From an uncultured Chloroflexia bacterium (lineage in GTDB: Bacteria; Chloroflexota; Limnocylindria; Limnocylindrales; CSP1-4), in NCBI GenBank assembly GCA_963842755.1, contig CAWJIC010000008.1:240-64239 (forward strand): a stretch of 64,000 bases of DNA, read 5' to 3'. Position numbers and translations under genes: made by a program. How positions within the stretch are numbered: the first letter of the stretch is position 1; each line of letters opens with the position of its first letter. The notes below the pieces were generated by a model. It was not told where the DNA came from, searched no databases, and saw only the letters and a list, made by a program, of their open reading frames with translations. This document shows positions 4,513 through 49,168 of the stretch, piece after piece.

Positions 4513-6105
4513 CTACCGAGATGGCGGCTGAGGACGTCCGCGAAGGACCGTGCCCGGCCTCTCCCCCGTCGGGCCGCCCTCTCGCTGGACCGCCCGGCCG
4601 CCGACGAAGACGGCGACGACTCCGGGTGGCTGCTGACACGGCTGCTCGTACGTTGCCGTGTCGACGTACGACGTCGGGTCGAGCAGCACGAGATCAGCTC
4701 GCAGCCCCTCGCGGATCCGGCCGCGATCCGCGAGCCCGAGCAGGTCGGCCGCGCGGGAACTGAGCCGCGCGACGGCGTCCTCGACCGTGATGAGCCGCTC
4801 CCGGATCGCGAACCGGCCGAGGACCCGCGCAGCGGTCGCGTAGACGCGGGGGTGGGGATGCGGGCCGAAGATGCCGTCGGAACCGACGAGCGCGAGGGGG
4901 TGGGTGAAGATCCGGCGCACGACCTCGTCGGTCGCGTAGTGGTCGATCATCGTCGCCGACAGCGCCGTCTCCACCATCACGTCGATCGCCGCTTCGGCCG
5001 GATCCTTGCCGAGCCCCTCGCCGATCTCCGCGAGTGAGCGACCGATCAGCTCGGCGTGACTCGAGGGCACGTCGACGATGACGACGCGCTCGGCCCCGCA
5101 CATCCCGTAGAGGTTCTCCCAGCCCGGGAGTCCCGTCTTCATCTCGCGGACGATCCGACCCCGCGTCTCGGGATCGAGGAGTCGCGGGAGCGTCGCCTCC
5201 CGTCCGCCCGCCAGTGCCCACGGCGGCAGGATCGCGCCAAGCATCGTACTGCCCGCACCGTAGGGGTACTGGTCGAAGGTGATGTCGATCTCGCGCCGCG
5301 CCTCGCCGAGGAGCTCGAGGAGCGGGTCGAGGAGCTGAGGATTGCCGACCAGCTTCAGGTGAGTGATGTGGAGCGGTGCGCCCGACCGGCGTGCGACCTC
5401 GATCATCTCCTCCGCCGCTGCGATGACACCCGCACCCTCGTTGCGGATGTGCGGCATGAGCGGCGCATGGAAGCGCGCGGCTTCCCGCGAGAGCTCGACA
5501 AGCTCGTGCGTGTCCGCGAACACCCCGGGGACGTAGATCAGACCGAAGGAGAGGGCGCGCGCGCCTGCCTCGAGCGCAGACCGGACCTCGGAACGCATCG
5601 CCGCGAGCTCCCGGTGCGTCGGAAGGCGGCCGTCTCGTCCCATCACGTGCTCACGAACCGCGTTGTGTCCGACTGACGCGACAAGGTTCGTCGCAGGCCG
5701 AGCCTCCTGGAGCGCTGCGAGGTACTCGTCCATCGAGGACCACGACGCCTGATCGGGACCGTGTCCCTCGATGGGCGCCAGATACGCGAGACGCATCGGC
5801 CAGGCTTCGCGGCTCACGGGTGACGGCCCGAGCCCGTCGGGTCCGATCAGCTCGGTCGTGAACCCCTGTCCCGCCTTCGGTGACAGGAGCGGGTCGACGA
5901 ACGGCCGGAGGCCGGAATGGGCGTGAAGATCGATGAACCCCGGGCAGAGGATGAGCCCCCGCCCCTCGATCACCTCCCGTGCCTCCCATCGGTCATCGCG
6001 CCCGACGGCCGCGATGACGCCGTCGGCGACGGCGACGTCCACTGGTGCGGGAGGCGAGTCTCCCGAATAGACCTGAGCGCCGGTGATCAGGAGGTCAAAC
6101 GTCAT
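4513..6105 (-). CDS. N-acyl-D-amino-acid deacylase (D-aminoacylase) family amidohydrolase
   Basis: The start MTFDLLITGAQVYSG..CPGFIDLHAHSG matches the metal-dependent amidohydrolase pattern. The ATG at 6105 overlaps the upstream stop (ATGA). Confidence 0.8.
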   Translation of the reverse strand: MTFDLLITGAQVYSGDSPPAPVDVAVADGVIAAVGRDDRWEAREVIEGRGLILCPGFIDLHAHSGLRPFVDPLLSPKAGQGFTTELIGPDGLGPSPVSREAWPMRLAYLAPIEGHGPDQASWSSMDEYLAALQEARPATNLVASVGHNAVREHVMGRDGRLPTHRELAAMRSEVRSALEAGARALSFGLIYVPGVFADTHELVELSREAARFHAPLMPHIRNEGAGVIAAAEEMIEVARRSGAPLHITHLKLVGNPQLLDPLLELLGEARREIDITFDQYPYGAGSTMLGAILPPWALAGGREATLPRLLDPETRGRIVREMKTGLPGWENLYGMCGAERVVIVDVPSSHAELIGRSLAEIGEGLGKDPAEAAIDVMVETALSATMIDHYATDEVVRRIFTHPLALVGSDGIFGPHPHPRVYATAARVLGRFAIRERLITVEDAVARLSSRAADLLGLADRGRIREGLRADLVLLDPTSYVDTATYEQPCQQPPGVVAVFVGGRAVQREGGPTGERPGTVLRGRPQPPSR

Positions 6106-30925: not shown

Positions 30926-31147
30926 ATGAGCAGTACCTGGCAGTCTGAGGGTGGCGGGGGTGGCGACCAGCCACCTGCGCCCCCGCCTCCGCCGCCCCCG
31001 CCCCCGCCACCGCCGCCTCCGCCGCCCCCGCCTCCGCCACCGCCGCCTCCGCCCCCGCCCGACCAAATCACGAAGGCCAATGAAAGCGTGAGGTCCGTCG
31101 GGGGCGGCGATGGTCCTCCGCCCCCTCCGCCACCCGAACGCGATTGA
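30926..31147 (+). CDS. 73-aa protein with a 27-residue uninterrupted polyproline run (plus a second P7 run)
   Basis: An AAGGAGG (30911-30917) sits 8 nt before the ATG. The stop overlaps the TTG start of the next gene. All four Pro codons are used. Confidence 0.55.
   Translation: MSSTWQSEGGGGGDQPPAPPPPPPPPPPPPPPPPPPPPPPPPPPPDQITKANESVRSVGGGDGPPPPPPPERD
30986..31060 (+). repeat. 30-nt tandem repeat, about 2.5 units, inside the polyproline tract
   Basis: Units: CCTCCGCCGCCCCCGCCCCCGCCACCGCCG / CCTCCGCCGCCCCCGCCTCCGCCACCGCCG / CCTCCGCCCCCGCCC. Confidence 0.8.
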
Positions 31148-32953: not shown

Positions 32954-33108
32954 ATGGCAGAGGTCGTCAACCCGCTCCTGGGCTTCTCCAGCCAGCGTCC
33001 GGCTTGGCTGCAGGACCTCATTCGGCGCGTGTACATCCAAGCTGAGTTGAGTGAGGCTGATCTCTCCGCCGTCCGTGGATTTCTGCTTGCGGAGCATTCG
33101 GCGGAATC
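32954..33108 (+). pseudogene. AAA_13-type ATPase, 5' piece (cut by the RIT element)
   Basis: MAEVVNPLLGFSSQRPAWLQDLIRRVYIQAELSEADLSAVRGFLLAEHSAE runs straight into the left inverted repeat. Confidence 0.6.
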
Positions 33109-33200
33109 CATTATGCCGAGCCGCGGATTATGCCGACCAGGGGTGTCGAACCGGCCGCTGCGTGAGTGGGTCGCCCCCGTGAGGTCGGCATAATCAGAGC
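33109..33200. repeat. RIT left inverted repeat (92 bp)
   Basis: Exact reverse complement of 36361-36452. It contains TTATGCCGA twice in direct and once in inverted orientation. Confidence 0.95.
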
Positions 33201-34183
33201 CCGTCGAGGAAGGCGAGGAGCGCGTCGGACGGTCGATAGCGTCCGGGCTTCGCGTCGGGCGGCGACGTCCTCGCGATCGCCCGCTCCTTGAGGGCGAGGT
33301 CCGCGTGCAGGTAGATCTGGGTCGTGTCGACGTGCTCGTGACCGAGCCAGAGGGCGATGACCGACGTATCGACACCGGCCTGGAGGAGGCGCATCGCCGC
33401 GGTGTGCCGCAGGACGTGGGGGCTGATCCGCTTGGCCCGCAGCGACGGACAGGCCGTGGCCGCCGAAGCCGCGTACCTGGTGATCCGACGCTCGACGGCG
33501 TCCCGGCTGAGCGGGGTGCCGGTGCTGGTCGGGAACAACGGGTCGACCCGTTCACCGGCTCGCTCGGCGAGCCAGACGCGCAGGACGGCGACTGTGGCCC
33601 GGGTGAGCGGCGTGATCCGCTCCTTGCGTCCCTTGCCGAGACAGCTCACATGGGCGCCCGTGCCGAGATGGACGTCGGCACAGCGGAGGCCGATCAACTC
33701 GGACACGCGCAGCCCGGTCTGGACCGCGAGCAGCAGCAGGGCGTGATCGCGCCGCCCGGTCCAGGTCGTTCGGTCCGGGACGGCAAGGAGCGCCTCGACC
33801 TCCCGATCGGTGAGGAAGGTGACCAAGCTGCGGGCGAAGCGCTTGGGGGGAATGGCCAGCACCCGGCCGATCGACTCGGCGTGCTCGGGATGGCGCAGCG
33901 CGGCATACCGGAACAGCGAGCGGATCGCCGCCAGGCGGGCATTGCGGGTCCGGACGCCGTTGCCCCGGTGGCGCTCGAGATGGTCGAGGAAGGCCCCAAC
34001 GAGGGGTGCGTCGATCTCGGCGACATCGAGGCGCGAGGGCGCGGTCCCGGTGCGATCCGCGGCGAACGCGAGGAGCAGGCGGAGCGTGTCGCGATAGGCA
34101 GCGATCGTCTGCGGGCTCGCTTGGCGCTGCCGGATGAGCCGGTCGGTGAAGAAGGCCTGGAGGGTCGGCGCGAGGGCGCTCAC
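33194..34183 (-). CDS. ritC: Tyrosine recombinase RitC
   Basis: 329 aa. GLRVSEL, HVLRHTAA and LGHEHVDTTQIYLH (R..HxxR..Y) are present. GTGA overlap with ritB. The stop lies inside the left inverted repeat. Confidence 0.85.
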   Translation of the reverse strand: MSALAPTLQAFFTDRLIRQRQASPQTIAAYRDTLRLLLAFAADRTGTAPSRLDVAEIDAPLVGAFLDHLERHRGNGVRTRNARLAAIRSLFRYAALRHPEHAESIGRVLAIPPKRFARSLVTFLTDREVEALLAVPDRTTWTGRRDHALLLLAVQTGLRVSELIGLRCADVHLGTGAHVSCLGKGRKERITPLTRATVAVLRVWLAERAGERVDPLFPTSTGTPLSRDAVERRITRYAASAATACPSLRAKRISPHVLRHTAAMRLLQAGVDTSVIALWLGHEHVDTTQIYLHADLALKERAIARTSPPDAKPGRYRPSDALLAFLDGL

Positions 34184-35106
34184 GGCTGGTCTCCGAGATG
34201 GCGCTCGAGAAGATCACCAGCGGCCGCGAGCAGCTCGGGTGCGGCCGAGAGATACCAGTACGTCGCCGCGGGGCTGACGTGGCCGAGGTACGTCGAGAGG
34301 ATCGGCAGCCGCGCGCCGACGTCGAGGTCGGCCCGATAGGCGTCGAGGACGGTGCGGACGGCGAACGTGTGGCGGAGGTCGTGGAGCCGCGGCCGACAGC
34401 CGGCGGACCGGGGTCGCAGGCCCGCATGACGGACGAGCTTGAGGAACGTCCGGTTCACGACGCAGTACCGGAGGCGGGTGCCCGCGCTCGACGAGAAGAG
34501 CGCGGCCGTGAGGATCCGAGGACGGGGCCGGTCGTCCCGGGCGAGATAGCGGTGGAGGGCGGTGACGGTCGTCGGATGGAGCGGCACCAGGCGCGACTTG
34601 CCGAACTTGCTCATTCGGATCGTGAGCGTCCCCTCGACAGGATCGAGATCCCCCCGATCGAGCCGGATCGCCTCGCCGACGCGGAGCCCGGCCACGGCGA
34701 GCAGGCCGACGAGCGTCGCGTACGTCGCCGCCCCGAACGGCGTCCGCAGGATGCAGGCGGCTCCCATGAGCGCCGCGACCTCGGCATCGCTGTACAGGTA
34801 CGGGGTCGCCCGCTGGCCTCGATCCCGAAGCAGCTCGGCCGGGATGAGCTCGTGGGCGGGATTGAGCGCGTGGAGATGGGCGGCGAAGCCGCGCACGACC
34901 GTGAGCCGCATGGCGAGCCAGCGCGGACCGCCATTCGCGGGCAGCGTCGCCCAGGCAAGCGCGGCCTCGACCGTGACCGTGGCGCTGCCCCTCGCGTCGA
35001 GGAAGGCGGTGAACTGGGCGAGCAGCCTGCCGGCCCGCTCGAGCCGGAAGCCGAGCGAGCGGCGGAGGCGGAGGTAGTCGGCGAGGGCCGGATCGAGGCG
35101 GTTCAT
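34180..35106 (-). CDS. ritB: Tyrosine recombinase RitB
   Basis: MNRLDPALADYLRLRRSLG.., GLRVGEAIRL, LHDLRHTFA and LGHVSPAATYWYL are present. ATGA overlap with ritA. Confidence 0.85.
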   Translation of the reverse strand: MNRLDPALADYLRLRRSLGFRLERAGRLLAQFTAFLDARGSATVTVEAALAWATLPANGGPRWLAMRLTVVRGFAAHLHALNPAHELIPAELLRDRGQRATPYLYSDAEVAALMGAACILRTPFGAATYATLVGLLAVAGLRVGEAIRLDRGDLDPVEGTLTIRMSKFGKSRLVPLHPTTVTALHRYLARDDRPRPRILTAALFSSSAGTRLRYCVVNRTFLKLVRHAGLRPRSAGCRPRLHDLRHTFAVRTVLDAYRADLDVGARLPILSTYLGHVSPAATYWYLSAAPELLAAAGDLLERHLGDQP

Positions 35107-36314
35107 GCGGCACCGCCCGGCCAGGGTCGGGCGAGGTCGCGAAGCGCACGCTCGTCCACCTTCGCGTAGATCGCGGTGGTCTGGGCCCGCCGATGGCGGA
35201 GTACCTGGCCGATCTCCGCGAGCGAGCCGCCGGCCCGGAGCATCTCGGTCGCCGCGGTGTGCCGGAGCCGGTGAGCGTGGACGAGCCCGAGGCCCGCTCG
35301 GCGGGCGGCGTCGCCCACGATCTGGCTCACCCCGGTCGACGACAGGCCCTTGTGCGGCGCCTTCACGCGGATGAACACCGCCCGGTCCAGGGCACTCGCA
35401 GGACGGCCGGCGCGGAGATACGCCACGATCGCCTCGCCGACGTCGGGCGGCAGCGGCAGCCGCTCGGCCCGGTTGCCCTTGCCGGAGACGACCAGCTCGC
35501 CCGCCCGCCAGTCGATGGCATCGAGCGAAAACCCCGCCACCTCGCCCGCCCGCAGCCCGAGCCGGACGAGGAGGGTCAAGATGGCGAAGTCCCGGCAACC
35601 CGCCACGCGTCGCCGATCGCACGAGGCGAGCAGGCGCTCCACCTCGGCTCGTGCGAGCCCGTGCGGCAGCGAGGCCAGCCGCCAAGCGGCTACCGGGGGC
35701 ACGCTCCCGGCGAGCGAGCGTGGGAGGACCCCCTCGACATGGAGGAAGCCAAGCAGGGATCGGAGGGCGGTCACGGTCAGCTTGGCTGAGCCGCGTGCCT
35801 GAGCCGGGCAGCGGGCCACGACGAACGCGGTGATGTCCGCGACCGTCAGCGCCTCGAGCGCGAGCCCATCGGACGTGGCCCGGCTGGCCAGGAACGGCCG
35901 GACCGCGGCGAGATACCCGCAGGCCGTGGTCGGCGCCAGGCCCCGCTCGACGGTCAGGAAGCGGCGGTACCGCGTGAGGAGCCGATCAAGCGGCGCGTCG
36001 GACTCCGGCTCGGGTGCCTCGGGGACCACTCCGAGCCGGCGCAGGTACTCGAGCGGCGGCTGGATCGCCCGGGTCGAGGCGTACCTCGTATGCCCGGCGG
36101 CTCGTCGAGCGGCGAGGAAGCGGTCGGCCTGGGCCGCTGACAGCGCTCCCGGCGCGAGCCCTTCGGCTTCGAGCCAGGCGCTCAGGTTCGCGACCAGCCG
36201 AAGCTGGAGGATCGCTCCCGAGGCCGTATATCCGACGCGACCGAGCTCGGCGGCGTAGCCGGCCACGCACGGTTGAAGCGGGCCGCTGACGCGGACCCGA
36301 AGCGGATCATGCAC
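35103..36314 (-). CDS. ritA: Tyrosine recombinase RitA
   Basis: 403 aa. GLRAGEVAG, HRLRHTAATEM and LRHRRAQTTAIYAKV are present. Confidence 0.85.
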   Translation of the reverse strand: MHDPLRVRVSGPLQPCVAGYAAELGRVGYTASGAILQLRLVANLSAWLEAEGLAPGALSAAQADRFLAARRAAGHTRYASTRAIQPPLEYLRRLGVVPEAPEPESDAPLDRLLTRYRRFLTVERGLAPTTACGYLAAVRPFLASRATSDGLALEALTVADITAFVVARCPAQARGSAKLTVTALRSLLGFLHVEGVLPRSLAGSVPPVAAWRLASLPHGLARAEVERLLASCDRRRVAGCRDFAILTLLVRLGLRAGEVAGFSLDAIDWRAGELVVSGKGNRAERLPLPPDVGEAIVAYLRAGRPASALDRAVFIRVKAPHKGLSSTGVSQIVGDAARRAGLGLVHAHRLRHTAATEMLRAGGSLAEIGQVLRHRRAQTTAIYAKVDERALRDLARPWPGGAA

Positions 36315-36360
36315 GATGCTCTCCTCTTTCGATGATGGAGAGGAGAGCGTCCATCAAGCG

Positions 36361-36452
36361 GCTCTGATTATGCCGACCTCACGGGGGCGACCCACTCACG
36401 CAGCGGCCGGTTCGACACCCCTGGTCGGCATAATCCGCGGCTCGGCATAATG
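36361..36452. repeat. RIT right inverted repeat (92 bp)
   Basis: Exact reverse complement of 33109-33200. Confidence 0.95.
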
Positions 36453-36455
36453 ACC

Positions 36456-36477
36456 CTTATGCCGACGTCGGCATAAG
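36456..36477. repeat. 22-bp perfect palindrome CTTATGCCGACGTCGGCATAAG carrying the inverted-repeat motif
   Basis: It lies directly outside the right inverted repeat and holds two inverted TTATGCCGAC copies. Confidence 0.9.
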
Positions 36478-36478
36478 A

Positions 36479-39005
36479 ACCACCGCCTGCGGAACCTCCA
36501 GCGCCCCTCCTTCCCGAGCACCTCCCTCCGAGCCAAACGGAAGCCGCGTCGGTGACTCTCGATGCGGTCGAGGGGATCCGCGCCGTCAACCGCCTCGCGG
36601 CCGACCAAACGCTCCGGTTCGCCTCTCGCGGTCTCACGGTTGTCTACGGCGACAACGGAAGCGGAAAGAGCGGCTACGTGCGCCTCCTGAAGCGGCTGTG
36701 TCGAGTCCGAACGGGCGCCGCTGAGAACCTGCTCGGCGACGTGTTTGCGCCGCCGGCAACAAATGCCCGCGCAACAGTCCGCTTCACGGTTGCAGACGGA
36801 ACGTCTCGCACCGTGCCCTGGGAAGAGGGAACTCCCGCTCCGATCGAGCTCTCCAAAATCTCCGTCTTCGACTCCCGTGCCATGGTTCTCTACGCGGACC
36901 AGCAAAATCAGCTTGAGTTCCTTCCGTACCACCTCGACGTCCTGCCTCGGGTGGCCACCGCCATGAGCAATCTCGCCACCAGCATTGACCAAGAGGTCGG
37001 AAGGTCCTTGGCGGGTCTCTCCGCGGACTGGTCCGCGGAGTGCCCGGCCACGTCGACCCAAGCCCTGCTCCTTCGCCTGAAGCCAGAGTCCACCGATCCC
37101 AACGGCCCGCCGTCGGAAGCCTCGTTGGTGGCTGCCGCGACTTGGTCAACGACGGACGAAGGCTCTCTTCAAATGGGCGAGCGCGCCCTGGCAGAGGGCG
37201 GGCCGGAGGTCGTGGCGCGCCGCCGGCGAGATGCCGAGCGCCTCCGGGCGTTCGTTCGGGACATCGAAGTTGTCGCCACGCGCCTGGATGAGCCCCAGCT
37301 CGAGATGGTCCGATCGACAGTCGAGCAGGCCCGCGCAGCACGCGCCGCTGCGACCCTCGCCGCCGATCAGGGGTTCGTGGACGAGCCGCTGGACGCAGTC
37401 GGTTCCGATCCGTGGCGCTTGATGTTTCAGTACGCGCGCCAGTACAGCGCACTCGCCTACCCCGGGCAGCCGTTCCCTGTTGTTTCAGCAGGCAGTCGAT
37501 GTCCGCTCTGCCAACAGGTGCTTGACGCGGAGGCGCGAGATCGTCTCGCGCGATTCGCTGAGTTTGTGCAGGCTGCGACCGCCGCAGCTGCAGACGAACG
37601 CGAGGCTGCGGTTGCCGCCCTCGCGACCGAGCACGGTTCGCTGGTTGTGCCGGGCTTCGAGCGGATTGAGCAAGTCGTGGCCGACACGGCTGGGGCAGAC
37701 ACGGCACCCGACGCGATGCTGACAACGACGGCGGCCTACCTGCGCCAACTCGCGGCGCGACATGAGGTGGTCAGTGCTCGATTCGTGGCGATACCGTGGC
37801 AGCGCTGCCACCGTTGCCGTCCTCGTCGGTTGGGGAGTTGACGGCGCGCGCCGCGGCGCTGGAGGCCGAAGCCAACGCGATCGCTGAAGTTGCGGACCCT
37901 GCCCGACGCGCCGCTCTCGAGGCCAACGTGCGGGAGCTCCGGGCGCGCAGACTGCTGCATGAGCGGCTGGCGGACGCCCTCGCGCGACGAGAGAAGGTCG
38001 TTCGAGTGCGCGCCCTCCGCGCTGCGCGTCGGGCTTGTGACACGAGCCCAGTTTCGCGAGCGGCCACCGAGCTACGCCGGCAATTCATCACCGCGGACTA
38101 TGCCGCGCGACTGCGCCGCGAGCTTGACACCCTCGGGCTTGACTACCTCCCCTTCAAGGTCGTCGATCAGACGGATCACGGGGTCTCCTACGTCCGGATC
38201 GTCTTGGATGCTCCCGCCGCGCCGAGAAACCGAGAGGTGCTAAGTGACGGGGAATACAGGGCGCTCGCTCTCGCATGCTTTCTCGCCGAGATCGGGGACG
38301 TGCCGCCCACAGCGGCATCGTCGTTGATGACCCTGTCTCCTCGCTGGATCACTCCAGAGCCGAGCGCGTCGCAGAACGCTTGACCGTGGAGGCCGCGAGC
38401 GGTCGGCAAGTGATCGTTTTCACCCATGACCTGGTCTTCTATCAAGCCCTCCGTTCAACCGCAGCCAAGGCGGGTGTTCCAATGGCCTACCACTGGCTCC
38501 GGCGGGCAGGAAGCGGTCAAGCGGGAGTCGTCTCGGATAGCGAACGACCGTGGCAATTGAAGCGCGTCCGCGAGCGCATTGGTGCCTTGCGTCCGCAGCT
38601 CGCCGCCTTGAAACGGACCCCCGACCAAGGCAGCGACGAGTATCGGATCTTGGCCACCGGCTTCTATGCCGGCTTGCGCGAGACCTGGGAGCGTCTCGTT
38701 GAGGAGCTGCTCTTCAACGAGGTGATAGGCCGGTTCCAGCTCGGCGTAACGACACTCCAGCACTGCGCGGTGCGGCCGTCGAGGACGGCGACCACGCCAA
38801 GGTGTTCTTCGCCATGGACAGGGCGTCCACCTTCTCAGGGCACGATCAAGCCATTGGACGACAGGCTGGAGTCCCGACGCCAGCGGAAGCTGAACGCGAC
38901 CTCGACGAGATCGAGGCGTATTCCGACGAGCTCCGTGCCCGTGTGACGGCTCTGGCAACACGACGGAAGGCCCTCGAGACCCCAGCCGCGCCCGAATTCG
39001 CCTAG
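36479..39005 (+). pseudogene. AAA_13-type (RloC/PrrC-like P-loop) ATPase, 3' piece with three frameshifts
   Basis: Walker A reads LTVVYGDNGSGKSGYVRLLK, followed by long coiled-coil-like Ala/Arg/Glu stretches. Next come LSDGEYRALALACFLAEIG and IVVDDPVSSLDHSR (Walker B/D-loop), then VIVFTHD. Frame changes lie near 37780, 38290 and 38790. The gene ends at 39005. Confidence 0.7.
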
Positions 39006-39718: not shown

Positions 39719-39830
39719 CGTGGCATCGCGGAGCGCCAACGTTCGGCGATGTCGCTCTTGTCGCGATCTAGGACCGAAGATGGTTTGAGCCGACACGCCC
39801 CGGATCGTGCGGACGGGCATACTCGCCGAC

Positions 39831-41213
39831 ATGGCGAGTCAGCCGAGCATCCGAGTCGTACGCAAGGGCCTGTCGAAGCGACTGCGCTTCGAGATTTTCA
39901 AGCGCGACAAGTTCACCTGCGTCTACTGCGGACGCACGCCGCCGCTCGTTGTGCTCGAAGTCGACCACATGGATCCGGTGGCCGGCGGTGGTGGCGACGA
40001 GCCTTCGAATCTCTTCACGGCCTGCCACGACTGCAATGCCGGGAAGTCAGACCGCCCGCTCGGCGAGGCGTTGCCCCAGGTTCGGCCCGAGGACACCGCG
40101 CTTCTCCAAGAGAAAGTCGAGCAGATGCGCGCGTTCCGCGAGTGGCGCGCCCAGTACGACAAGGAGCTGCGGCTCGAACTCAACGAGGTCTGGCAGGCGT
40201 GGATCGATGCCTTCGGCGGGGAACTCGTCGACGGAACCTACCACTCCGGTCGCGTCAACTTCCCATCTGACAAGGCCGTGCTCGGCTACCTCGAAGAGAT
40301 CTCTATCGCCGAGGTCGCCGACGCCGTGAATGTAGCCGCCTGGAAGCAGCGCAAGGAGGGCCTGTATACCGCCGAGGTCGTCCGCTACTTCTACGGCGTC
40401 CTTCGCGGGAAGGCCCGTCGGTCGGACGAGGAGCGGCGGCAGATCAAGGTCACCTGGGACGAGCTCGCGGAGCAGCTTCCCGAGCTTGCCAAGGTCCGAA
40501 GCGACGTCGCTGGGTTCGATCCCACGGACCAGTGGAACTTCTGCGGCAGCCGCATCTGGACGGGCGGCTGGACGATCCAATTCGAGGACGGGACGAACCA
40601 ATCCGTCGCTTCCCCGGTCGCTCGGATCGCTGGGCTGGTCGGGCCGAAGAGCGAGAACAGCCGTGACCCGATCCTCGGGTCACAGACAGCGCACGACCTC
40701 GCGGTCCGGACGATCAAGTTCGACCTGCCGGCATGCGGGCAGACCTGCGAGTGCGGTCGGCCGAAACGCGCGCCGCGGGACGAGGACTACCCGCGCTGCG
40801 CGCGTTGTGGTCAGGTGACGGCCCCCGTCGACTGGCGCGAAAGCTGCGTCCCCACCGGGTGGGTCTGGCAGGGCCAGGACTTCGAGGAGGTGCCGTACGG
40901 CTCCGAGCCGTGGCTGTCGCTCTGTCAGATCGCCGAGAACTATGGCCGGTACCGCCGCCTCGCGACGCCCACGCTCACGCGGCCGCGGGAGCTCTGCGTC
41001 GGCTGTCGAACGCCGATTGGCGGCTTCCACCATCCGGCCTGCGGACAGGCTGCCTGTGTCGTCTGCTGGGAACAGCAGGGGTCAGGCTGCGCTCAGCGGT
41101 CGCACCGGGCGAAGACGTGGGAGATCAGCGGGAAGCAGGCCATGGCCCGCCTCCGGCAGATGAAGCCGCGGTTGACCACGGCCGCACCTGAAGACCGTCG
41201 GTCGTCAACATGA
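39831..41213 (+). CDS. HNH endonuclease with a long Cys-rich C-terminal extension
   Basis: The HNH core reads FEIFKRDKFTCVYCGRTPPLVVLEVDHMDPVAGGGGDEPSNLFTACHDCNAGKSDR. The C-terminal ~150 aa carries several CxxC pairs. Confidence 0.8.
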   Translation: MASQPSIRVVRKGLSKRLRFEIFKRDKFTCVYCGRTPPLVVLEVDHMDPVAGGGGDEPSNLFTACHDCNAGKSDRPLGEALPQVRPEDTALLQEKVEQMRAFREWRAQYDKELRLELNEVWQAWIDAFGGELVDGTYHSGRVNFPSDKAVLGYLEEISIAEVADAVNVAAWKQRKEGLYTAEVVRYFYGVLRGKARRSDEERRQIKVTWDELAEQLPELAKVRSDVAGFDPTDQWNFCGSRIWTGGWTIQFEDGTNQSVASPVARIAGLVGPKSENSRDPILGSQTAHDLAVRTIKFDLPACGQTCECGRPKRAPRDEDYPRCARCGQVTAPVDWRESCVPTGWVWQGQDFEEVPYGSEPWLSLCQIAENYGRYRRLATPTLTRPRELCVGCRTPIGGFHHPACGQAACVVCWEQQGSGCAQRSHRAKTWEISGKQAMARLRQMKPRLTTAAPEDRRSST

Positions 41214-42736: not shown

Positions 42737-45157
42737 TCAGACTCGGGGAAGCCGGTCGCCGACCCCCACGGGAGCGCCCCGACGCAGCTCCCGCAGGATC
42801 GCCTCAGGGTCGAGGAAACTGTCGGTGATGTGCCCGCCGAATTGCGCCAACGCGTCATCGACCGCGTTCACGGCGGCGATCAGCGGGGAGCCACCGCCCT
42901 CGCCGCCGCCGCGGGTGCCGAGCGGCGTCGCAGTCGAGGGGGTCTCCTGGTACTCGACGTCGAAGTCCGGCATGTCAGCGGCCGTCGGCGCCCAGTAGTC
43001 CTTGAAGCTCGCAGCCAGCAGCTGCCCCTCCTCGTCATAGTGGAGGTGCTCGTACAGCGCAGCGCCGAGCTGGTGCCCGATCTGCCCATGGATCTGGCCC
43101 TCGACGATCAGCGGGTTGATCCGGCGGCCGAAGTCATCGAGGCCGACGAACTTCAGCACCTTGACGGTACCAGTCTCCGGGTCGACCTCGACGAGGGCGA
43201 TCGCGATCCCGTACGAGTAGGTGAACGAGAAGTTGCCGCGCTTGTCCGACAGCGGCATGTCAAACGTCGGCCGGTAGACGTACTGTGTCACGAGGCCGGC
43301 CTCCACATCCTCCGGGAGGCGCGCCAGGTCACGCCACGCCACGTGGGCGATCTCGGCCAGGGTGAACCCGCGGTCCGTGCCGCGGACCTGGGCCCGGCCG
43401 TCGATCAGCTCGATATCCTCCTCTTGCGCCTCCAAGAGATGGGCCGCGATCCTGCAAATCTTCGCCCGCAGCTGCCGACCGGCCCCGATCACAGCGCCAG
43501 CCCCGACGATCGCGAAGCGACTCGCGTAGGTCCCGGAGAAGGCGGAATGGGCGTGCGTTGCAGAGTCGAATCCGGACAGGACGTGGACGTCGTCCGGGGT
43601 CACGCCTAGTTCGTCGGCGACCAACTGGGCCACGGTCGTCTCCTGCCCCTGGCCCTGCGGCACGGACCCGGTTGTCGCCGTGATCCCGCCGAACTCGTCG
43701 ATCCGAATCGAGGCAGCCTCGCTGTCCCCCGACGTCTGAAGACTTGGGTTGATCACACGAATTAGGGACGCATTGATGGGACAGCCGTCCATGCCCATCG
43801 CCACGCCCACGCCGAGCAATCGACCCTGCTTGCGCGCCTCCACGCGGGACCGCCCAACCGCCTCATAGTCGATCATCTCCATCGCGCGGCGGAGCATCCG
43901 CGGGTAGTCGCCGCCATCGAGCCGACAACCGCTCGGGTTTTCGTACGGCATCTGTTCCGGTTGAACGAAGTTCCGGAAGCGGATCTCAGCTTGGTCCAGC
44001 CCGAGCGCACGCGCTCCCTTGTCGAGCAGGCGCTCGATGAGATAGCAATGCTGCATCTTCCCGTAGGAGCGGTTCGGCCCGACCGCACTCTTGTTGGTCA
44101 GGACGGCGTAGATGTCCATCTCGAGATTGCTGAACCGGTAGCCGACCGTCGAATGGCGAATGAAGTTGATCGCTCCGATCGGCTCGCGGCGCATGTAGGC
44201 GCCCTCGTCGTGAAGCGCCCGGGCCCGCACACCGAGGATCGTGCCGTCGCTCGCGAGCGCCATTTCGCCGTCGTAAAGGACCTCCTGCCCGTGGGTGCTC
44301 GCCATCATGTGCTCACGGCGAGTCTCGACCCACTTCACGGGACGTCCCGCCTTTCGCGCGAGGAGGACCAGCGCGACCAGGTACAGGTAGCTGTTGTTCT
44401 TGATGCCGAACCCTCCGCCGATATCGGGGCAGATGAAGCGCAGATTCTCGCTCGGCATCCGGAGCGGCTTTGCTATGAATGGCAAGTTGAGTATTGGCCG
44501 CTGGTTGTTACTCCAGATCGTGGCCGTGTCGGCGCCCGCGTCGTACTGGGCGATGACGACCGTCGTCTCGAGAGGGGCCGACGAAAACCGGTGCCAGTGC
44601 AGCCGGTCCTTGACGATCACCGCGGCATCACGGAACGCCCCATCCACGTCGCCATACGTGAACGTGTCGTGCCAGACGACGTTCGACGGCAAATTCTCGT
44701 GAACGACCGGTGCATCCGGCGCCATTGCGTGCTCGACGTCGGACACGGGCGGCAGTGGCTCATACTCGACTTCGATCGCCTCGGCCGCGTCCGCCGCGAG
44801 GTAGGGGTCCGTGGCGACGACCGCTGCAACGGCCTCGCCGGCGTGCCTCGCGGTCCCGACCGCGAGGCAGTAGTCCCGCAGTTGGTCGTAGGGTGCCTGG
44901 AGGACCTGCTGGGCCGGGTCGGTGAGCTCGCGGACCTCCTCGCCGCTCAGGACGGTGACGACACCCGGCATCGCAAGGGCGCGCTCGGCGTCGATCCGGA
45001 CGATCTTCGCGTGAGCATACGGCGACCGCACGAACGCCGCGTGCAGCATGCCAGGCAGGCTGATGTCGCCGGCATATCGGCCCTGGCCGGTCAGGAAGCG
45101 GCGGTCTTCCTTGCGCAGGACGGGCTGGCCGAACCATTTCTGCCGGGTGGTCGTCAT
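42737..45157 (-). CDS. Molybdopterin-binding large subunit of a xanthine-dehydrogenase-family hydroxylase (copy A)
   Basis: MTTTRQKWFGQPVLRKEDRRFLTGQGRYAGD.. at the N-terminus. It is colinear with copy B throughout. The active-site-loop region reads GPNRSYGKMQ. Confidence 0.85.
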   Translation of the reverse strand: MTTTRQKWFGQPVLRKEDRRFLTGQGRYAGDISLPGMLHAAFVRSPYAHAKIVRIDAERALAMPGVVTVLSGEEVRELTDPAQQVLQAPYDQLRDYCLAVGTARHAGEAVAAVVATDPYLAADAAEAIEVEYEPLPPVSDVEHAMAPDAPVVHENLPSNVVWHDTFTYGDVDGAFRDAAVIVKDRLHWHRFSSAPLETTVVIAQYDAGADTATIWSNNQRPILNLPFIAKPLRMPSENLRFICPDIGGGFGIKNNSYLYLVALVLLARKAGRPVKWVETRREHMMASTHGQEVLYDGEMALASDGTILGVRARALHDEGAYMRREPIGAINFIRHSTVGYRFSNLEMDIYAVLTNKSAVGPNRSYGKMQHCYLIERLLDKGARALGLDQAEIRFRNFVQPEQMPYENPSGCRLDGGDYPRMLRRAMEMIDYEAVGRSRVEARKQGRLLGVGVAMGMDGCPINASLIRVINPSLQTSGDSEAASIRIDEFGGITATTGSVPQGQGQETTVAQLVADELGVTPDDVHVLSGFDSATHAHSAFSGTYASRFAIVGAGAVIGAGRQLRAKICRIAAHLLEAQEEDIELIDGRAQVRGTDRGFTLAEIAHVAWRDLARLPEDVEAGLVTQYVYRPTFDMPLSDKRGNFSFTYSYGIAIALVEVDPETGTVKVLKFVGLDDFGRRINPLIVEGQIHGQIGHQLGAALYEHLHYDEEGQLLAASFKDYWAPTAADMPDFDVEYQETPSTATPLGTRGGGEGGGSPLIAAVNAVDDALAQFGGHITDSFLDPEAILRELRRGAPVGVGDRLPRV

Positions 45158-45202
45158 TGTCGCCTCCGTAAATCGCCGATCCATCGTGGTTTCGTTAGCC
45201 TC

Positions 45203-46569: not shown

Positions 46570-46708
46570 CACCTAACGGGCAAGTTGCCGAATGAGTCCA
46601 TCATGGTCGCCGATATCGATGTCGGCGCTCAGATGAGGTGCGCACCGTGCGCGATCTTGGCGATCTCGCCCCTTGCCGCAGTACCGCTACGACTGCGACC
46701 GGGTCCCG
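46570..46708 (-). promoter_or_regulatory. 139-nt conserved 5' leader, copy A (upstream of the FAD-subunit gene)
   Basis: 133 of 139 positions are identical to 54613-54751, with no indels. It ends a few nt before the Shine-Dalgarno sequence and start. Three consecutive hairpins are possible. Confidence 0.6.
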
Positions 46709-49168
46709 TCCCGGCCGGCCAGAATCGTGGTGTTCCCACCGGCGCGTATTCGCGCGTTGGCATCCTGGATCGCCCGCCAGATCGTGTCCGGGCTGAGCGG
46801 CAGCGACCGAAGCTGCGTGCCGAGCGGGCGAAGCGCGTCGTCGACGGCATTGGCGAGGACCGGGGGGGGCCCGACCGTGCCAGTTTCGCCCGCGCCCTTG
46901 AAGCCGCCGGGGGTGAAGGGCGACGGCGAGATCATGTGATCGAGTGTGAAGTCGGGGATCTCCATGGCCGTCGGAACGAGATAGTCCTTGAAGCTCTGCT
47001 GGAGCAACTGGCCGCTCTCGTCGTAGCGGAGCTCCTCGTACAGTGCGCCGCCGATCCCGTGGGCGAGTGCCCCGAGATGCTGACCCTGGACGATGGCAGG
47101 GTTCAGCATGTTGCCGCAATCGTGGACGCTGACGTACCGCTCGATGTCGAGTACGCCGGTGGCCTCGTCGATCTCGACCGCGACGACCTGGGCGTCGTAC
47201 GGAAACGCCGAGAACATCGCGACCCGGCCGTTCGCGTCGATCGAGAAGCCGATGTTCGGGTCGCGGTAGTGGTACGTGAGCTGGAGCCCCGGGCTCCTCC
47301 CCCTCGGGCAGGTCGTGGATTCGATGGTAGGCGGTTCGCGCGATCTGTTCGAGCGAGAGGTACCTGGCCGGATCGCCCTTCATCCGCACGAGACCGTCGA
47401 CGAGCTCGAGGTCGGACGGCGCCGCCTCCAGCAGGTGCGCCGCGATGCGGACGATCTTGTCAGCGAGCTGCCGGCTGGCCAGGGTCACGCTCGACGTCCC
47501 GACGACCGAGAAGCGGCTCGAATAGGAGCCCGTCCCGTACGGCGTTGCGAGCGTGTCGCCCTCGACGACATGGACCTGGTCGATCTCGATGCCCAGCTCC
47601 TCGGCGACCAGCTGCGAGATCGTGGTCGCGTGGCCCTGGCCCTCGTCGTTGCCGCCGTGCGCCACCTCCACCCGGCCCTGGGGGTCCATCCGGATCGTCG
47701 TGCTGAAGTAGCCTGAGTTGTACGAGCCCATCCGGGTCGACGACGAGGGCTCGATGACGAGGCACATCCCGATCCCGAACAGGCGGCCGGCCCGGCGGCG
47801 CTCGCGCTGGATCTCGCGGAGGCGATCGTAGTCGGCAAGCTCGAGGGCACGCTTCAGCGCAGCCGGGTAGTCTCCGCTGTCATAGCGCGAGCCGGTCGCG
47901 CAGATGTACGGGAACTCGTCCGGCTGGATGAAATTCCGGAAGCGGATGGCCTCGGGCGACATCCCCAGCCGGTCGGCGGCGATGTCCATCATCCGCTCGA
48001 TCACGTAAGCCGCCTCGGACTTGCCGAAGCCGCGATGGGCGCCGAAGGGCGTCTTGTTCGTCACCACCCCAAACAGCTCGGCCCGGTAGTTCTGGATCCG
48101 GTACGCGCCGGGCACGTACATGACGGTCGTCATGATCGAGGCGAAGCCTCCGACGGGGTAGGCGTCGCCGAGGTTCGCGTAGACCCGGTCGCGGACACCG
48201 AGCACAGTCCCGTCGCGCTTGAGGGCCATCTCGACGTGGTGCGTCTGCTCACGAGCGTGGTTGGTGGCCACCATGTGCTCACGGCGCGTTTCGATCCACT
48301 TCACCGGGCGCTCGAGCAGGATCGACCCCAGCGACGCGACGAGCTCCTCCGGATAGAAACCCCACTTCTGGCCGAACCCGCCGCCGATGTCGGGGGCGAT
48401 GACCCGGACCTTGAGGTTGGGCGGTTTCGTGAAACTGTCCTCGAGGAGGGCGCTGACCACATGCGGGATCTGCGTCAAATCCCACAGCGTGAGCACGTTG
48501 GCGGCGCGGTCGTACGATGCCACCAGGCCCCGTGGCTCGATCGGCGTGCCCGTGAAGCGGTGATGGTACAGGCGTTCGCTGACGACGACGTCGGCCCCCG
48601 CGAACGCCTGGTCGACGTCGCCGTTGGACACGTGGAAGGTCAGCGCGACGTTGTCGCCCCAGTCCTCGTAGAGCAGCGGCGCACCGTCCGCGAGGGCGGC
48701 CTCCGCGTCGAGCACGGGCTCAAGCGCCTCATACTCCACGTCCACGAGCTCGATGGCGTCCTCGGCGATGTAGCGATCATCCGCCACGACGAACGCAACC
48801 GGCTCGCCTGCGAATCGGACCTTCTCATGGGCGAGCCCATATCGATCGTGGAACTTGATCGTCGGGTTGCCGGCGCGAAACGGGTCCCGACTCTGAAACG
48901 GGAACGGGGACATGTACTTCACGTGATCGGCGAGGTCGGCCGCGGACAGCGCCAGGCGAACGCCAGGAATTGCCCGGACCCGGTCCAGATCGACGCGGAT
49001 CAGCCGGGCGTGGGCGTACGGGCTCCGATAGAAAGCGCCGTGCAGAAGGCCGGCGGGCGCAAGGTCGCCGACGAAGGTGCCGGCACCTCGGAGCAGCCGG
49101 TCATCCTCCTTTCGGGGGAGGCTCCGCCCGATGAACCGGCCGACCCGGTTGCTCGTCGCGGTGCTCAA
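46687..49168 (-). pseudogene. Molybdopterin-binding large subunit (copy B) with a single frameshift
   Basis: The N-terminal 630 aa are in one frame (..AYHRIHDLPEGEEPG). The C-terminus (LQLTYHYRDPNIGFSIDANGRVAMFSAFPYDAQVVAVEIDEATG..) is in another. The switch lies at a CCCGGGG run (47287-47293). Both parts align colinearly with copy A. Confidence 0.8.

What the first reader, a model, noticed from the sequence alone, without database searches (positions are those of the whole stretch)
33109..36478. Recombinase-in-trio (RIT) element with perfect 92-bp inverted repeats, caught inside a defence-type ATPase gene
What the sequence shows:
- Three tyrosine-recombinase genes lie in tandem (403, 308 and 329 aa) and are joined by ATGA and GTGA overlaps.
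- 33109-33200 is the exact reverse complement of 36361-36452.
- Each inverted repeat carries three copies of TTATGCCGA (two direct, one inverted).
- A 22-bp perfect palindrome made of the same motif (36456-36477) lies just outside the right inverted repeat.
- The host ORF (MAEVV..LLAEHSAE) runs directly into the left inverted repeat.
- Deleting 33109-36478 joins TC+A and restores one continuous frame (..LLAEHSAES-PPPAEPPAPLLPEH..GDNGSGKSGY..). Deleting only from inverted repeat to inverted repeat does not. This suggests the palindrome belongs to the element.

Established knowledge: ritA-ritB-ritC trios flanked by inverted repeats are a recognised but poorly understood mobile-element class.

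Inference: perfect inverted repeats and intact recombinase genes point to a recent, possibly still active insertion with an unusually well-defined target junction.
Basis: partly seen in the sequence, partly recalled or inferred. Interest (0 to 1): 0.7.

Follow-up and report, generated by a model that had tools for sequence, protein, structure and literature searches.

The report
Recombinase-trio transposon interrupting a defence gene
This is a genuine "recombinase-in-trio" mobile element sitting inside a dead candidate phage-defence gene; the element is an ordinary member of a known class, but comparing it with about 120 related copies gives a testable model of how these never-demonstrated elements insert.

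Summary
The three genes are RitA, RitB and RitC orthologues. Both flanks belong to one ~890-aa PADLOC PDC-S06 ATPase. The palindrome is inserted DNA, not host DNA.

Two inferences fail.
- The junction is not well defined. No close uninterrupted allele exists. In nine relatives the conserved target ORF is restored only by removing IR..IR + 6 + 20 + 6 nt. That rule gives 3372 nt here (33111-36482), not 3370, and leaves the ATPase out of frame.
- Perfect inverted repeats do not show recency. The arms are 93% identical within elements (median) and 68% between them. The host gene also carries at least three further frameshifts.

Family-level results:
- The 20-mer TTATGCCGACGTCGGCATAA occurs in at least 119 stretches of genome contigs from several phyla.
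- In 92 of 123 occurrences it lies exactly 6 nt outside one inverted repeat, at either the ritA or the ritC end.
- With the terminal 9-mer it forms a dif-like core (TCGGCATAA-N6-TTATGCCGA).
- The 6-nt centre is duplicated at the target in 13 of 32 complete layouts.
- Many copies sit in the C.VH..RN motif of IS256-family transposase genes. The window's site imitates that motif.

Verdict: a new member of a known kind.

The parts
32954..33104 (+). N-terminal fragment of the interrupted host gene, a PDC-S06-type AAA_13 ATPase
   Evidence: It aligns with the N-termini of full-length homologues (RPAWLQD motif). It is covered by the PADLOC profile from residue 6.
33105..33110 (.). J1: 6-nt central region (AATCCA) between host DNA and the terminal site of the ritC-end repeat
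   Evidence: It occupies the same position as the 6-nt spacer J1 in 32 complete relatives. It is probably the target's own hexamer; that assignment is inference.
33111..33200 (.). Inverted repeat at the ritC end. Site 1 is 33111-33119, site 2 is 33128-33136, and the inverted site 3 is 33185-33193.
   Evidence: It is the exact reverse complement of 36361-36450. The same three-site layout is conserved in 22 relatives, while the sequence between the sites is not.
33194..34183 (-). ritC (329 aa)
   Evidence: Pfam Phage_integrase 128.6 bits plus SAM_1. 60% identical to pHG1 RitC, E = 3e-141. Keeps GLRVSE, HVLRHT and GH..Y.
34180..35106 (-). ritB (308 aa)
   Evidence: Pfam Phage_integrase. 44% identical to pHG1 RitB, E = 1e-76. 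7894 database relatives, the closest 90% identical. Catalytic motifs intact.
35103..36314 (-). ritA (403 aa, with an extra ~110-aa N-terminal region)
   Evidence: Pfam Phage_integrase plus SAM_1 at residues 114-194. 39% identical to pHG1 RitA over residues 10-401, E = 1e-79. Catalytic motifs intact.
36361..36450 (.). Inverted repeat at the ritA end. Site 3 is 36368-36376, site 2 is 36425-36433, and the terminal site 1 is 36442-36450.
36442..36465 (.). Complete dif-like core TCGGCATAA-TGACCC-TTATGCCGA. It consists of the terminal site of the repeat, the 6-nt J2 (36451-36456), and the first half of the palindrome.
   Evidence: The 9+6+9 layout is present in 92 of 123 palindrome loci. The inner arm bases GCATAA / TTATG match E. 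coli dif, GGTGCGCATAA-TGTATA-TTATGTTAAAT.
36457..36476 (.). 20-nt palindrome core TTATGCCGACGTCGGCATAA: two back-to-back arm sites that belong to the element
   Evidence: The exact 20-mer is found in at least 119 stretches of genome contigs from several phyla. It contains a TAA that is in frame with the host gene.
36477..36482 (.). J3: 6-nt central region (GAACCA) between the palindrome and host DNA
   Evidence: Position as in relatives. The same hexamer is the host-derived spacer of close relatives L134 and L140, which sit in ..RCWN.. transposase targets. This suggests it was carried over from a previous site; that step is inference.
36483..39005 (+). Rest of the host PDC-S06 ATPase gene. It is broken by further frameshifts near 37803-37805, 38293-38296 and 38757-38763.
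   Evidence: tblastn with homologues P0002, P0003 and P0008 switches frame 3 to 2 to 1. The frameshift sites were inspected directly. The stitched 890-aa protein matches PDLC04891 with E = 1e-161 and AAA_13 at 58.8 bits.

Best explanation
The locus is a RIT (recombinase-in-trio) mobile element. The inserted DNA runs 33111-36476 and includes one of the two flanking hexamers. It sits in a candidate phage-defence ATPase gene (PADLOC PDC-S06 type) that is now a pseudogene.

Structure. The inserted unit is: repeat (ritC end) - ritC, ritB, ritA - repeat (ritA end) - 6 nt - 20-nt palindrome - 6 nt. Each repeat carries three 9-10-bp recombinase sites. The outermost site, a 6-nt centre and one half of the palindrome together form a dif-like core, TCGGCATAA-N6-TTATGCCGA.

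Proposed mechanism.
1. The three Xer-like recombinases join the two ends.
2. The joined form has repeat-N6-palindrome-N6-repeat as a roughly 230-bp dyad. This dyad holds two equivalent back-to-back cores.
3. One core exchanges strands with a target at the two edges of a 6-bp central region.
4. The palindrome therefore always lands next to the same half of the target, while the gene trio can face either way.
5. The two central regions need not be identical. One junction keeps the target's hexamer and the other keeps the hexamer brought from the donor site.

Target. This clade prefers DNA encoding the C.VH..RN motif of IS256/Mutator-family transposases. The window's site is a look-alike of the palindrome-side half of that target.

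What is shown: the anatomy, the 6-nt rule, the restoration of target ORFs, the polarity, both gene orientations, and the target preference.

What is inferred: a circular joined intermediate, which protein binds which site, tolerance of mismatched centres through heteroduplex, and carry-over of the donor hexamer.
For: Identity as a RIT:
- Order A-B-C, ATGA and GTGA overlaps, 3.34 kb from repeat to repeat.
- Best matches to a pHG1 RIT trio are A-A at 1e-79, B-B at 1e-76 and C-C at 3e-141. Cross-matches are no better than 1e-16.
- All three proteins keep the catalytic Arg, HxLRH and Tyr.
- NCBIfam's best hits are XerC and XerD, below their cut-offs.

Host gene:
- The stitched ATPase matches PDC-S06 over residues 6-870 with E = 1e-161.

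Palindrome and cores:
- The exact 20-mer occurs in at least 119 stretches of genome contigs.
- 92 of 123 occurrences have a TTATGCCGA-like site exactly 6 nt away on one side.

6-nt rule:
- In 13 of 32 complete layouts the hexamers flanking the insertion are identical direct repeats; in 11 of these the internal hexamer is also their reverse complement.
- In 9 elements, removing IR..IR + 6 + 20 + 6 restores ..QRC.VH..RN.. in frame with no stop.

Polarity and orientation:
- In 32 IS256-type targets the palindrome is always on the H..RN side and never on the other side. The adjacent end is ritC in 14, ritA in 9, and undetermined in 9.
- One element with an identical RitB is joined to a near-identical target flank through either repeat, and also sits in a second type of target.

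Target mimicry in the window:
- The palindrome-side flank matches 9 of 12 informative consensus positions. Only 75 of 127,970 window positions score that high, and only 4 do so with the 5' CA.

dif likeness:
- 6-nt centre and inner arm bases GCATAA / TTATG.

Mismatched hexamers:
- L012, L045 and L111 each have one junction equal to the element's internal hexamer and one of host type.
Against: - No circle junction, empty site or excision product was observed. RIT mobility has never been reproduced experimentally (PMC10214605).
- In the window the three hexamers all differ (AATCCA, reverse complement of J2 = GGGTCA, GAACCA). The 3372-nt rule does not restore the ATPase frame, so an extra indel or an atypical event at this pseudo-site must be assumed.
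- The loci were collected by exact match to the 20-mer, so the apparent invariance of the palindrome is partly ascertainment. L145 and L146 carry a variant.
- Many relatives are short-read metagenome contigs. Orientation across perfect ~90-nt repeats, and fold-back at palindromes, can be assembly artefacts (L051, L097, L127).
- The near-identity of the two arms is not explained by a simple double-stranded-circle model.
- Ricker et al. 2013, the main RIT paper, could not be read.
Confidence: 0.72

Rival explanations
1. The element is exactly 33109-36478. It was inserted recently at a TC|A junction into an otherwise intact ATPase gene, and the perfect repeats reflect its youth.
For: Removing 3370 nt restores one reading frame across the junction. 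The three recombinase ORFs are intact. The repeats are perfect.
Against: - The right boundary was chosen 1 nt beyond the palindrome to obtain the frame.
- Nine relatives show the inserted unit is IR..IR + 32 nt, which gives 3372 nt here.
- The ATPase carries at least three further frameshifts, while the 3.1 kb of rit coding sequence has none. The gene is therefore long dead or was already dead at insertion.
- Perfect or near-perfect arms are the norm even where arms differ by about 32% between elements.
Confidence: 0.15
2. The mobile form is a folded single strand or an extruded cruciform, not a plain double-stranded circle. The two repeats, the two hexamers and the palindrome halves pair into one long hairpin, and its stem reconstitutes the dif-like core. 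This would resemble CTX-phage attP(+) or integron attC, with one strand exchange resolved by replication. Mismatch correction in the stem would keep the arms identical.
For: - Within-element arm identity has a median of 0.93, with 5 of 29 perfect. Between-element identity has a median of 0.68, and the roughly 45-57 nt between sites is unconserved.
- The internal hexamer is the exact reverse complement of the palindrome-side hexamer in 17 of 32 layouts.
- A mobilome study found RITs enriched in exonuclease-resistant DNA but found no circle junctions, and proposed hairpin intermediates (PMC5737581).
Against: - Gene conversion during inversion between the repeats, or RecA-mediated conversion, would equally homogenise the arms.
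- There is no direct evidence for single strands.
- A direct 6-nt duplication of the target hexamer is also what classical double-strand exchange gives.
Confidence: 0.25
3. The palindrome is not part of the RIT. It is a pre-existing landing pad or an independent micro-element next to which RITs insert.
For: - 31 of 123 palindromes have no adjacent repeat.
- One solo palindrome (L106) sits at the canonical IS256 site with only 26 nt inserted.
Against: - In nine elements inserted in IS256-family transposase genes the uninterrupted conserved motif has no room for the palindrome. It therefore arrived with, or as, mobile DNA.
- It is built from the same 9-mer as the repeats.
- Solo copies are explained as well by loss of the IR-to-IR segment through recombination between the two cores.
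Confidence: 0.08
4. The trio with its repeats is only an invertible DNA switch or a resident Xer-like resolution system, not a transposable element.
For: - The repeats would support inversion.
- The same element is seen in both orientations next to near-identical flanks.
Against: - Clean interruption of many unrelated genes, with target restoration.
- Identical RitB in different targets.
- Distribution across phyla.
Confidence: 0.03

Closest known systems
RIT (recombinase in trio) elements: Van Houdt et al. 2009/2012 (PMC3414803), Janssen et al. 2010 (PMC2864759), Ricker et al. 2013
   Same: - ritA-ritB-ritC order, ATGA-type overlaps and ~3.4 kb size.
- Three distinct recombinase families, all with catalytic motifs.
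- Flanking inverted repeats with a palindrome at one end.
- Insertion into genes, including transposase genes.
   Different: - The literature I could read describes 28-34-bp repeats and no convincing binding sites. It lists target specificity and mobility as untested.
- Here the repeats are 90 nt with three sites.
- Relatives define a 6+20+6-nt palindrome module and a preferred target.
- I could not check what Ricker 2013 already reported.
Xer/dif recombination and the elements that exploit it (IMEX such as CTX phage)
   Same: - Simple Xer-like tyrosine recombinases.
- A core of two inverted arms around a 6-bp centre.
- Inner arm bases GCATAA / TTATG as in dif (PMC2731167).
- Possible use of a folded palindromic attP, as in CTX phage.
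   Different: - The element encodes its own three recombinases.
- Its targets are not the chromosomal dif site.
- Its arms are nearly identical to each other rather than XerC-type and XerD-type.
- No link to FtsK or the replication terminus.
Tn554, strand-biased circularizing elements (SE) and GInts (PMC10214605); Tn916 coupling sequences
   Same: - Several tyrosine-recombinase genes per element.
- Site preference.
- A 6-bp junction sequence that need not match the target and appears to travel from the donor flank to the new site.
   Different: - Those elements lack long terminal inverted repeats and the palindrome module.
- They carry cargo and extra non-recombinase proteins (TnpC, Srap, Tfp).
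- Carry-over in RITs rests here on hexamer patterns only.
PADLOC PDC-S06 candidate defence ATPase (AAA_13 / SMC_N / AAA_21 family), the host gene
   Same: Full-length profile match, Walker A motif GDNGSGKSG, a CxxC pair, and the DDPVSSLD and THD motifs.
   Different: In the window it is interrupted and frameshifted. PDC-S06 is itself only a predicted defence system with no tested function.

Membership tests
RIT element | Three adjacent, same-strand tyrosine-recombinase genes in the order ritA-ritB-ritC | tested here: met
   ORFs of 403, 308 and 329 aa on the minus strand, all hitting Pfam PF00589. The order was confirmed by best matches to a reference trio.
RIT element | Short (4-8 bp) overlaps between consecutive genes | tested here: met
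   ATGA at 35103-35106 and GTGA at 34180-34183 on the coding strand.
RIT element | Each protein falls in its own RitA, RitB or RitC family | tested here: met
   Against the pHG1 trio (L133): A-A 39%, E = 1e-79; B-B 44%, 1e-76; C-C 60%, 3e-141. All cross-pairs are no better than 1e-16. The record annotates the pHG1 genes only as integrases. Their status as RIT genes rests on PMC3414803 and PMC2864759.
RIT element | Catalytic Arg, His-x-x-Arg and Tyr present in all three proteins | tested here: met
   RitA: GLRAGE, HRLRHT, RH..Y. RitB: GLRVGE, HDLRHT, GH..Y. RitC: GLRVSE, HVLRHT, GH..Y.
RIT element | RitA has two sequential core-binding domains and RitC has an extra C-terminal helix (PMC8138268) | tested here: inconclusive
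   - RitA has about 110 extra N-terminal residues before the SAM_1 domain, and these align with pHG1 RitA.
- The single-sequence AlphaFold model shows two successive four-helix groups, but mean pLDDT is only 53.
- Pfam finds nothing in residues 1-113.
- RitC has 37 residues after the catalytic Tyr, and the match to pHG1 RitC runs through them to the last residue.
RIT element | Flanking inverted repeats and an overall length of about 3.5 kb | tested here: met
   92-nt perfect repeats, 3344 nt from repeat to repeat. Most relatives measure 3.07-3.43 kb.
RIT element | Evidence of mobility (several copies or several insertion sites) | tested here: inconclusive
   - There is only one copy in the 64-kb window.
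- Exact-protein look-ups for RitA and RitC found no other contig.
- Relatives do occupy many different sites, and one element with identical RitB is in two kinds of target.
- Mobility of this particular copy cannot be tested here.
dif-type Xer recombination site | Two inverted recombinase-binding arms around a 6-bp central region, with conserved inner arm bases | tested here: met
   TCGGCATAA-N6-TTATGCCGA in 92 of 123 loci. dif is GGTGCGCATAA-TGTATA-TTATGTTAAAT, with its inner arm positions the most conserved. This is a resemblance in architecture only.
dif-type Xer recombination site | Acted on by host XerC/XerD at the replication terminus under FtsK control | not testable with these tools
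   The element encodes its own recombinases and sits in many non-terminus genes. It is not filed as a dif site.
PADLOC PDC-S06 (host gene) | Full-length match to the PDC-S06 profile | tested here: met
   PDLC04891: E = 1e-161, protein residues 6-870 against profile positions 5-856 of 858, after stitching four frames and removing the insertion.
Tn554 / SE-type elements | A 6-bp flank sequence carried from the donor site to the new site, with no target duplication | tested here: inconclusive
   - Mixed hexamer patterns: 13 of 32 layouts have identical flanking hexamers, while others have one element-type and one host-type hexamer.
- The window's J3, GAACCA, equals the host-derived hexamer of relatives L134 and L140.
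- No donor-recipient pair was observed.

The most novel reading that the evidence does not exclude
Palindrome-bearing RITs form one deeply conserved family, spanning Actinomycetota to Chlamydiota, of 'transposons of transposons'. Four properties would define them.
- They insert, with fixed polarity, into DNA encoding conserved catalytic-region motifs of other mobile-element enzymes. Examples are IS256/Mutator C.VH..RN, tyrosine-recombinase box II RH(S/T)F, and motifs I read as IS1634-like transposase.
- They use a symmetric attachment region made of two back-to-back dif-like cores that share a 20-bp palindrome.
- Their two 90-nt arms and the flanking hexamers are kept identical because the element passes through a folded hairpin or cruciform state.
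- Loss of the gene segment leaves 26-nt palindrome scars, and 329-nt gene-less miniatures also exist.

None of this appears in the RIT literature I could read.
Probability: 0.35. Interest if true: 0.75.

Novelty: new member of a known kind. Interest (0 to 1): 0.55.

Why it matters
Even so, a 2023 review table still lists their movement, target specificity and empty-site formation as "not tested" (PMC10214605). An earlier analysis found no convincing recombinase-binding sites (PMC3414803).

The window's copy adds little by itself. It is one more RIT, in a dead candidate defence gene. Its clean anatomy did, however, lead to a comparative picture that makes the open question testable. That picture consists of:
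- a defined 24-bp core;
- a 20-bp palindrome;
- a 6-bp crossover region;
- a target consensus;
- a polarity rule.

All of these can go straight into plasmid-to-plasmid recombination assays.

If confirmed, two further consequences follow. RITs would be parasites of other transposons. They could also provide compact, self-encoded, site-specific integration modules.

Tried and rejected
- Uninterrupted ATPase allele. A protein search with the restored N-terminal 492 aa found only the window's own fragment at 100%. The next hits were at most 37% identical (BLASTP; 39% in the MAFFT alignment). The crossover site therefore cannot be read from an empty allele.
- Other copies of this exact element. Exact-product look-ups for RitC and RitA returned nothing. 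The single metagenome scan, with a 24-mer from the variable part of the repeat, found one contig, L134.
- Palindrome centre as the crossover. I considered reading the palindrome's own centre (TTATGCC-GACGTC-GGCATAA) as the crossover core. I rejected this because the arm orientation is opposite to dif, and because the 6-nt relationships among junctions lie outside the palindrome.
- Four-nt spacer at the left junction. The host arm TCGGCGGAA (7 of 9 matches to the site) followed by TCCA was considered as a real 4-nt spacer. It is not supported by any relative.
- Sequencing error as the cause of the ATPase frameshifts. This is unlikely, because the adjacent 3.1 kb of rit genes and many ORFs of 500-900 aa elsewhere in the window are intact. 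It is not excluded.
- RitA N-terminal region. Pfam at E up to 10 gave nothing useful. A single-sequence AlphaFold model was too poor to settle the two-domain question.
- Literature. Ricker et al. 2013 is not held. The 20-mer appears in no held paper.

Full report
1. THE OBSERVATION

All the sequence facts are correct.
- The minus strand carries three overlapping tyrosine-recombinase genes: 36314-35103 (403 aa), 35106-34180 (308 aa) and 34183-33194 (329 aa). They are joined by ATGA and GTGA overlaps.
- 33109-33200 is the exact reverse complement of 36361-36452. The match continues inward imperfectly, to 106 nt at 94%, and does not continue outward.
- TTATGCCGA occurs eight times in the 64 kb, only at this locus, against 0.13 expected.
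- The 22-nt palindrome at 36456-36477 is perfect.
- Deleting 33109-36478 gives one reading frame.

The frame argument is weak. The only hard constraint is that the in-frame TAA at 36474-36476, inside the palindrome, must be removed.

2. THE ELEMENT

It is a RIT element.
- NCBIfam's best hits for all three proteins are XerC and XerD, well below the cut-offs. They are Xer-like, not Xer.
- I compared them with a trio on plasmid pHG1 of Cupriavidus necator H16, a replicon the RIT literature singles out (PMC3414803; PMC2864759). The matches are strictly A-to-A (39%, 1e-79), B-to-B (44%, 1e-76) and C-to-C (60%, 3e-141). Cross-matches are no better than 1e-16.
- All three keep the catalytic Arg, HxLRH and Tyr.
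- RitA carries about 110 extra N-terminal residues and RitC about 37 residues after the Tyr. Both fit the family description in PMC8138268. My structure model of RitA was too poor to prove two core-binding domains.
- The element is GC-richer (0.736) than its surroundings (0.65-0.68).

3. THE HOST GENE

The 52-aa N-terminal ORF aligns with the N-termini of 830-860-aa AAA_13/SMC_N/AAA_21 proteins. For example..RPAWLQD.. is shared with P0011.

I stitched together the N-terminal piece and four downstream pieces read in three reading frames. The resulting 890-aa protein matches PADLOC PDC-S06 (PDLC04891) with E = 1e-161, over residues 6-870 and profile positions 5-856 of 858. Both flanks therefore belong to one gene, and "defence-type" is fair. 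PDC-S06 is only a candidate system.

The gene is badly damaged. Homologue alignments switch frame near 37805 and 38295. Inspection also shows a third frameshift near 38760, and each of the three looks like a single-base deletion. The adjacent 3.1 kb of rit coding sequence has none.

No allele more than 39% identical exists in the protein collection, so there is no empty site to read.

4. RELATIVES

RitB has 7,894 database relatives. The closest is 90% identical, and many lie on contigs of roughly 3-4 kb.

Two complete relatives with flanks were examined first: L010 (RitB 87% identical) and L012 (83%, from a Chloroflexota MAG).
- Both have perfect 91-nt and 94-nt repeats.
- Both carry the same 20-nt palindrome core, but outside the ritC-end repeat. 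In the window it lies at the ritA end.

The hosts include Actinomycetota, Acidobacteriota, Chloroflexota, Alpha-, Gamma- and Deltaproteobacteria, Planctomycetota and Chlamydiota.

Of 123 palindromes:
- 91 have a TTATGCCGA-like 9-mer exactly 6 nt away on one side;
- 1 has such a 9-mer on both sides;
- 31 have none.

The neighbouring gene is ritC in 37 cases and ritA in 25.

Because the loci were collected by exact match, the invariance of the 20-mer is partly ascertainment. L145 and L146, retrieved through a protein look-up, carry TTATGCCGATGTCGGCATAT instead.

5. THE JUNCTION RULE

Thirty-two complete layouts were found (31 loci; L051, which carries a palindrome at both ends, was read from each end). 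All show the same arrangement: host - J1 (6 nt) - [repeat..rit..repeat] - J2 (6 nt) - palindrome (20 nt) - J3 (6 nt) - host.
- In 13 of 32, J1 and J3 are identical; in 11 of these both also equal the reverse complement of J2.
- In the rest, J3 or J1 alone equals the reverse complement of J2 (J3 in L012; J1 in L045 and L111), or all three differ (the window and L037).
- In nine elements, removing repeat..repeat + 6 + 20 + 6 restores ..(W)QRC.VH(F/K/L).RN.. in frame with no stop.

This is the signature of tyrosine-recombinase exchange across a 6-bp overlap region. It also shows that the palindrome is inserted DNA.

Applied to the window, the inserted unit is 33111-36482, or equivalently 33105-36476. 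That is 3372 nt, a multiple of three, which does not put the ATPase pieces in frame. Either an additional indel lies near the junction of this decaying gene, or the event at this non-canonical site was atypical. I cannot decide which.

6. THE CORE

Read as arm-N6-arm, the terminal site of the repeat, J2 and the near half of the palindrome give TCGGCATAA-TGACCC-TTATGCCGA at 36442-36465.
- The layout is the same as dif: arms plus a 6-bp centre.
- The inner arm bases also match. E. coli dif is GGTGCGCATAA-TGTATA-TTATGTTAAAT, and its inner positions are the most conserved (PMC2731167).
- The palindrome is therefore two arms back to back, shared by two adjacent cores.

If the element's ends are joined, repeat-N6-palindrome-N6-repeat is a roughly 230-bp dyad with two equivalent cores.

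This predicts that the palindrome always lands beside the same half of the target while the genes face either way. That is what is seen. In 32 IS256-type targets the palindrome is on the H..RN side every time. The ritC end is adjacent in 14 and the ritA end in 9.

One element with an identical RitB (P0048) is joined to near-identical (98.8%) target flanks through repeat C in L136 and through repeat A in L138. It also sits in a different target in L140. Short-read assembly across perfect repeats could confuse orientation, so in-situ inversion is suggested, not shown.

7. TARGETS

About a third of the palindrome-side flanks encode the C.VH..RN signature of IS256/Mutator-type transposases. At the DNA level this is ..GTsCA|yTTCmTGCGCAAyGT. 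Other groups of flanks lie in:
- tyrosine-recombinase box II (RHSFGTH);
- an LYSITTNQAA motif;
- an SKERRLEPQI motif that I read as IS1634-like.

The window's flank, GAACCA|CCGCCTGCGGAACCT, matches 9 of 12 informative positions. Only 75 of 127,970 window positions score as well. Only four do so with the preceding CA. The ATPase site is therefore a look-alike of the preferred target.

The accessible literature notes single cases of RITs in transposase genes and in radC. It lists target specificity as untested.

8. HEXAMER CARRY-OVER (INFERENCE)

L134 is the closest relative (RitA 85%, RitB 89%, RitC 91% identical). L140 is a second relative. Both sit in ..RCWN.. transposase targets whose own hexamer is GAACCA. 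The window's J3 is also GAACCA. This suggests the window's element brought that hexamer from such a donor site, and that AATCCA (J1) is the ATPase's own. The pattern would parallel Tn554, SE and Tn916.

9. THE ARMS

The three sites are conserved across the family. Site 1 is terminal, site 2 starts 17 nt further in, and the inverted site 3 follows 45-57 nt later. The sequence between them is not conserved.
- The two arms of one element are 93% identical (median; 5 of 29 are perfect, including the window).
- Arms of different elements are 68% identical.

The arms therefore evolve in concert. Perfect repeats are not a clock, and some homogenising step must exist. Candidates are a folded intermediate with mismatch correction, or gene conversion during inversion. 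A mobilome study proposed hairpin intermediates for RITs (PMC5737581).

10. VERDICT

It is partly wrong: the junction is not well defined, and recency is not shown.

The element is a new member of a known kind. The family-level model is the interesting part. It remains a sequence-based inference, and I could not check it against Ricker et al. 2013.

Noticed in passing
window 37797-37810: A 14-nt palindrome, TGGCAGCGCTGCCA, is identical to the 'WQRC' half of the family's preferred IS256 target. It lies exactly at one of the ATPase frameshifts (about 37803-37805), 1.3 kb from the RIT. With up to 1 mismatch, 0.19 matches are expected, and 2 of 100 shuffles reach the observed count. It could be chance, or a trace of recombinase activity.
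   Followed up: partly
window 37803-37805, 38293-38296, 38757-38763: There are three further frameshifts in the host ATPase. Each looks like a single-base deletion relative to homologues, so the gene is a pseudogene independently of the RIT.
   Followed up: yes
window 39807-41213 (+): A 468-aa protein with an N-terminal HNH nuclease domain (Pfam HNH, 37 bits) lies about 800 nt downstream of the ATPase. It gives only weak PtuB-like PADLOC hits (E = 2e-4). It might be a partner of the defence gene.
   Followed up: partly
window 30978-31061: A GC-rich tandem array (period 6, 15 or 30; consensus CGCCGC) gives poly-Pro and poly-Gly ORFs on both strands, about 2 kb upstream of the interrupted gene.
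   Followed up: partly
L030 about 4584-4944 (uncultured Actinomycetota MAG): A 329-nt miniature has two three-site arms, J2 and the palindrome but no rit genes. The variable parts of its two arms differ. It may be a non-autonomous derivative.
   Followed up: partly
L106 about 3382-3401, and the other 'solo' palindromes (31 of 123): These palindromes have no adjacent repeat. In L106, removing 26 nt (palindrome plus one hexamer) restores ..WQRCRVHFMRNML... The palindrome alone therefore sits at the canonical target. It is either a scar left by loss of the gene segment or a 20-bp micro-element.
   Followed up: partly
L051, L097, L127: Host sequence is duplicated in inverted orientation on both sides of the palindrome (12-18 nt or whole flanks). 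These are either real fold-back products or assembler artefacts at a perfect palindrome.
   Followed up: no
L077 1719-7249; L080: Two RIT trios lie next to each other in opposite orientation (L077), and a RIT is interrupted by another recombinase trio (L080). RITs appear to insert into or beside one another.
   Followed up: no
L133 1200-1665 and 5022-5487 (pHG1): The reference pHG1 trio is flanked by a 466-nt inverted duplication at 99%. It lacks the TTATGCCGA motif and the palindrome. The architecture described here therefore belongs to a subgroup of RITs, not to all of them.
   Followed up: partly
window 42737-45184 and 46601-49168 (-): Two paralogous molybdopterin-binding xanthine-dehydrogenase-family large-subunit genes lie downstream. 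They are ordinary metabolic context, so the region is not obviously a mobile island.
   Followed up: no
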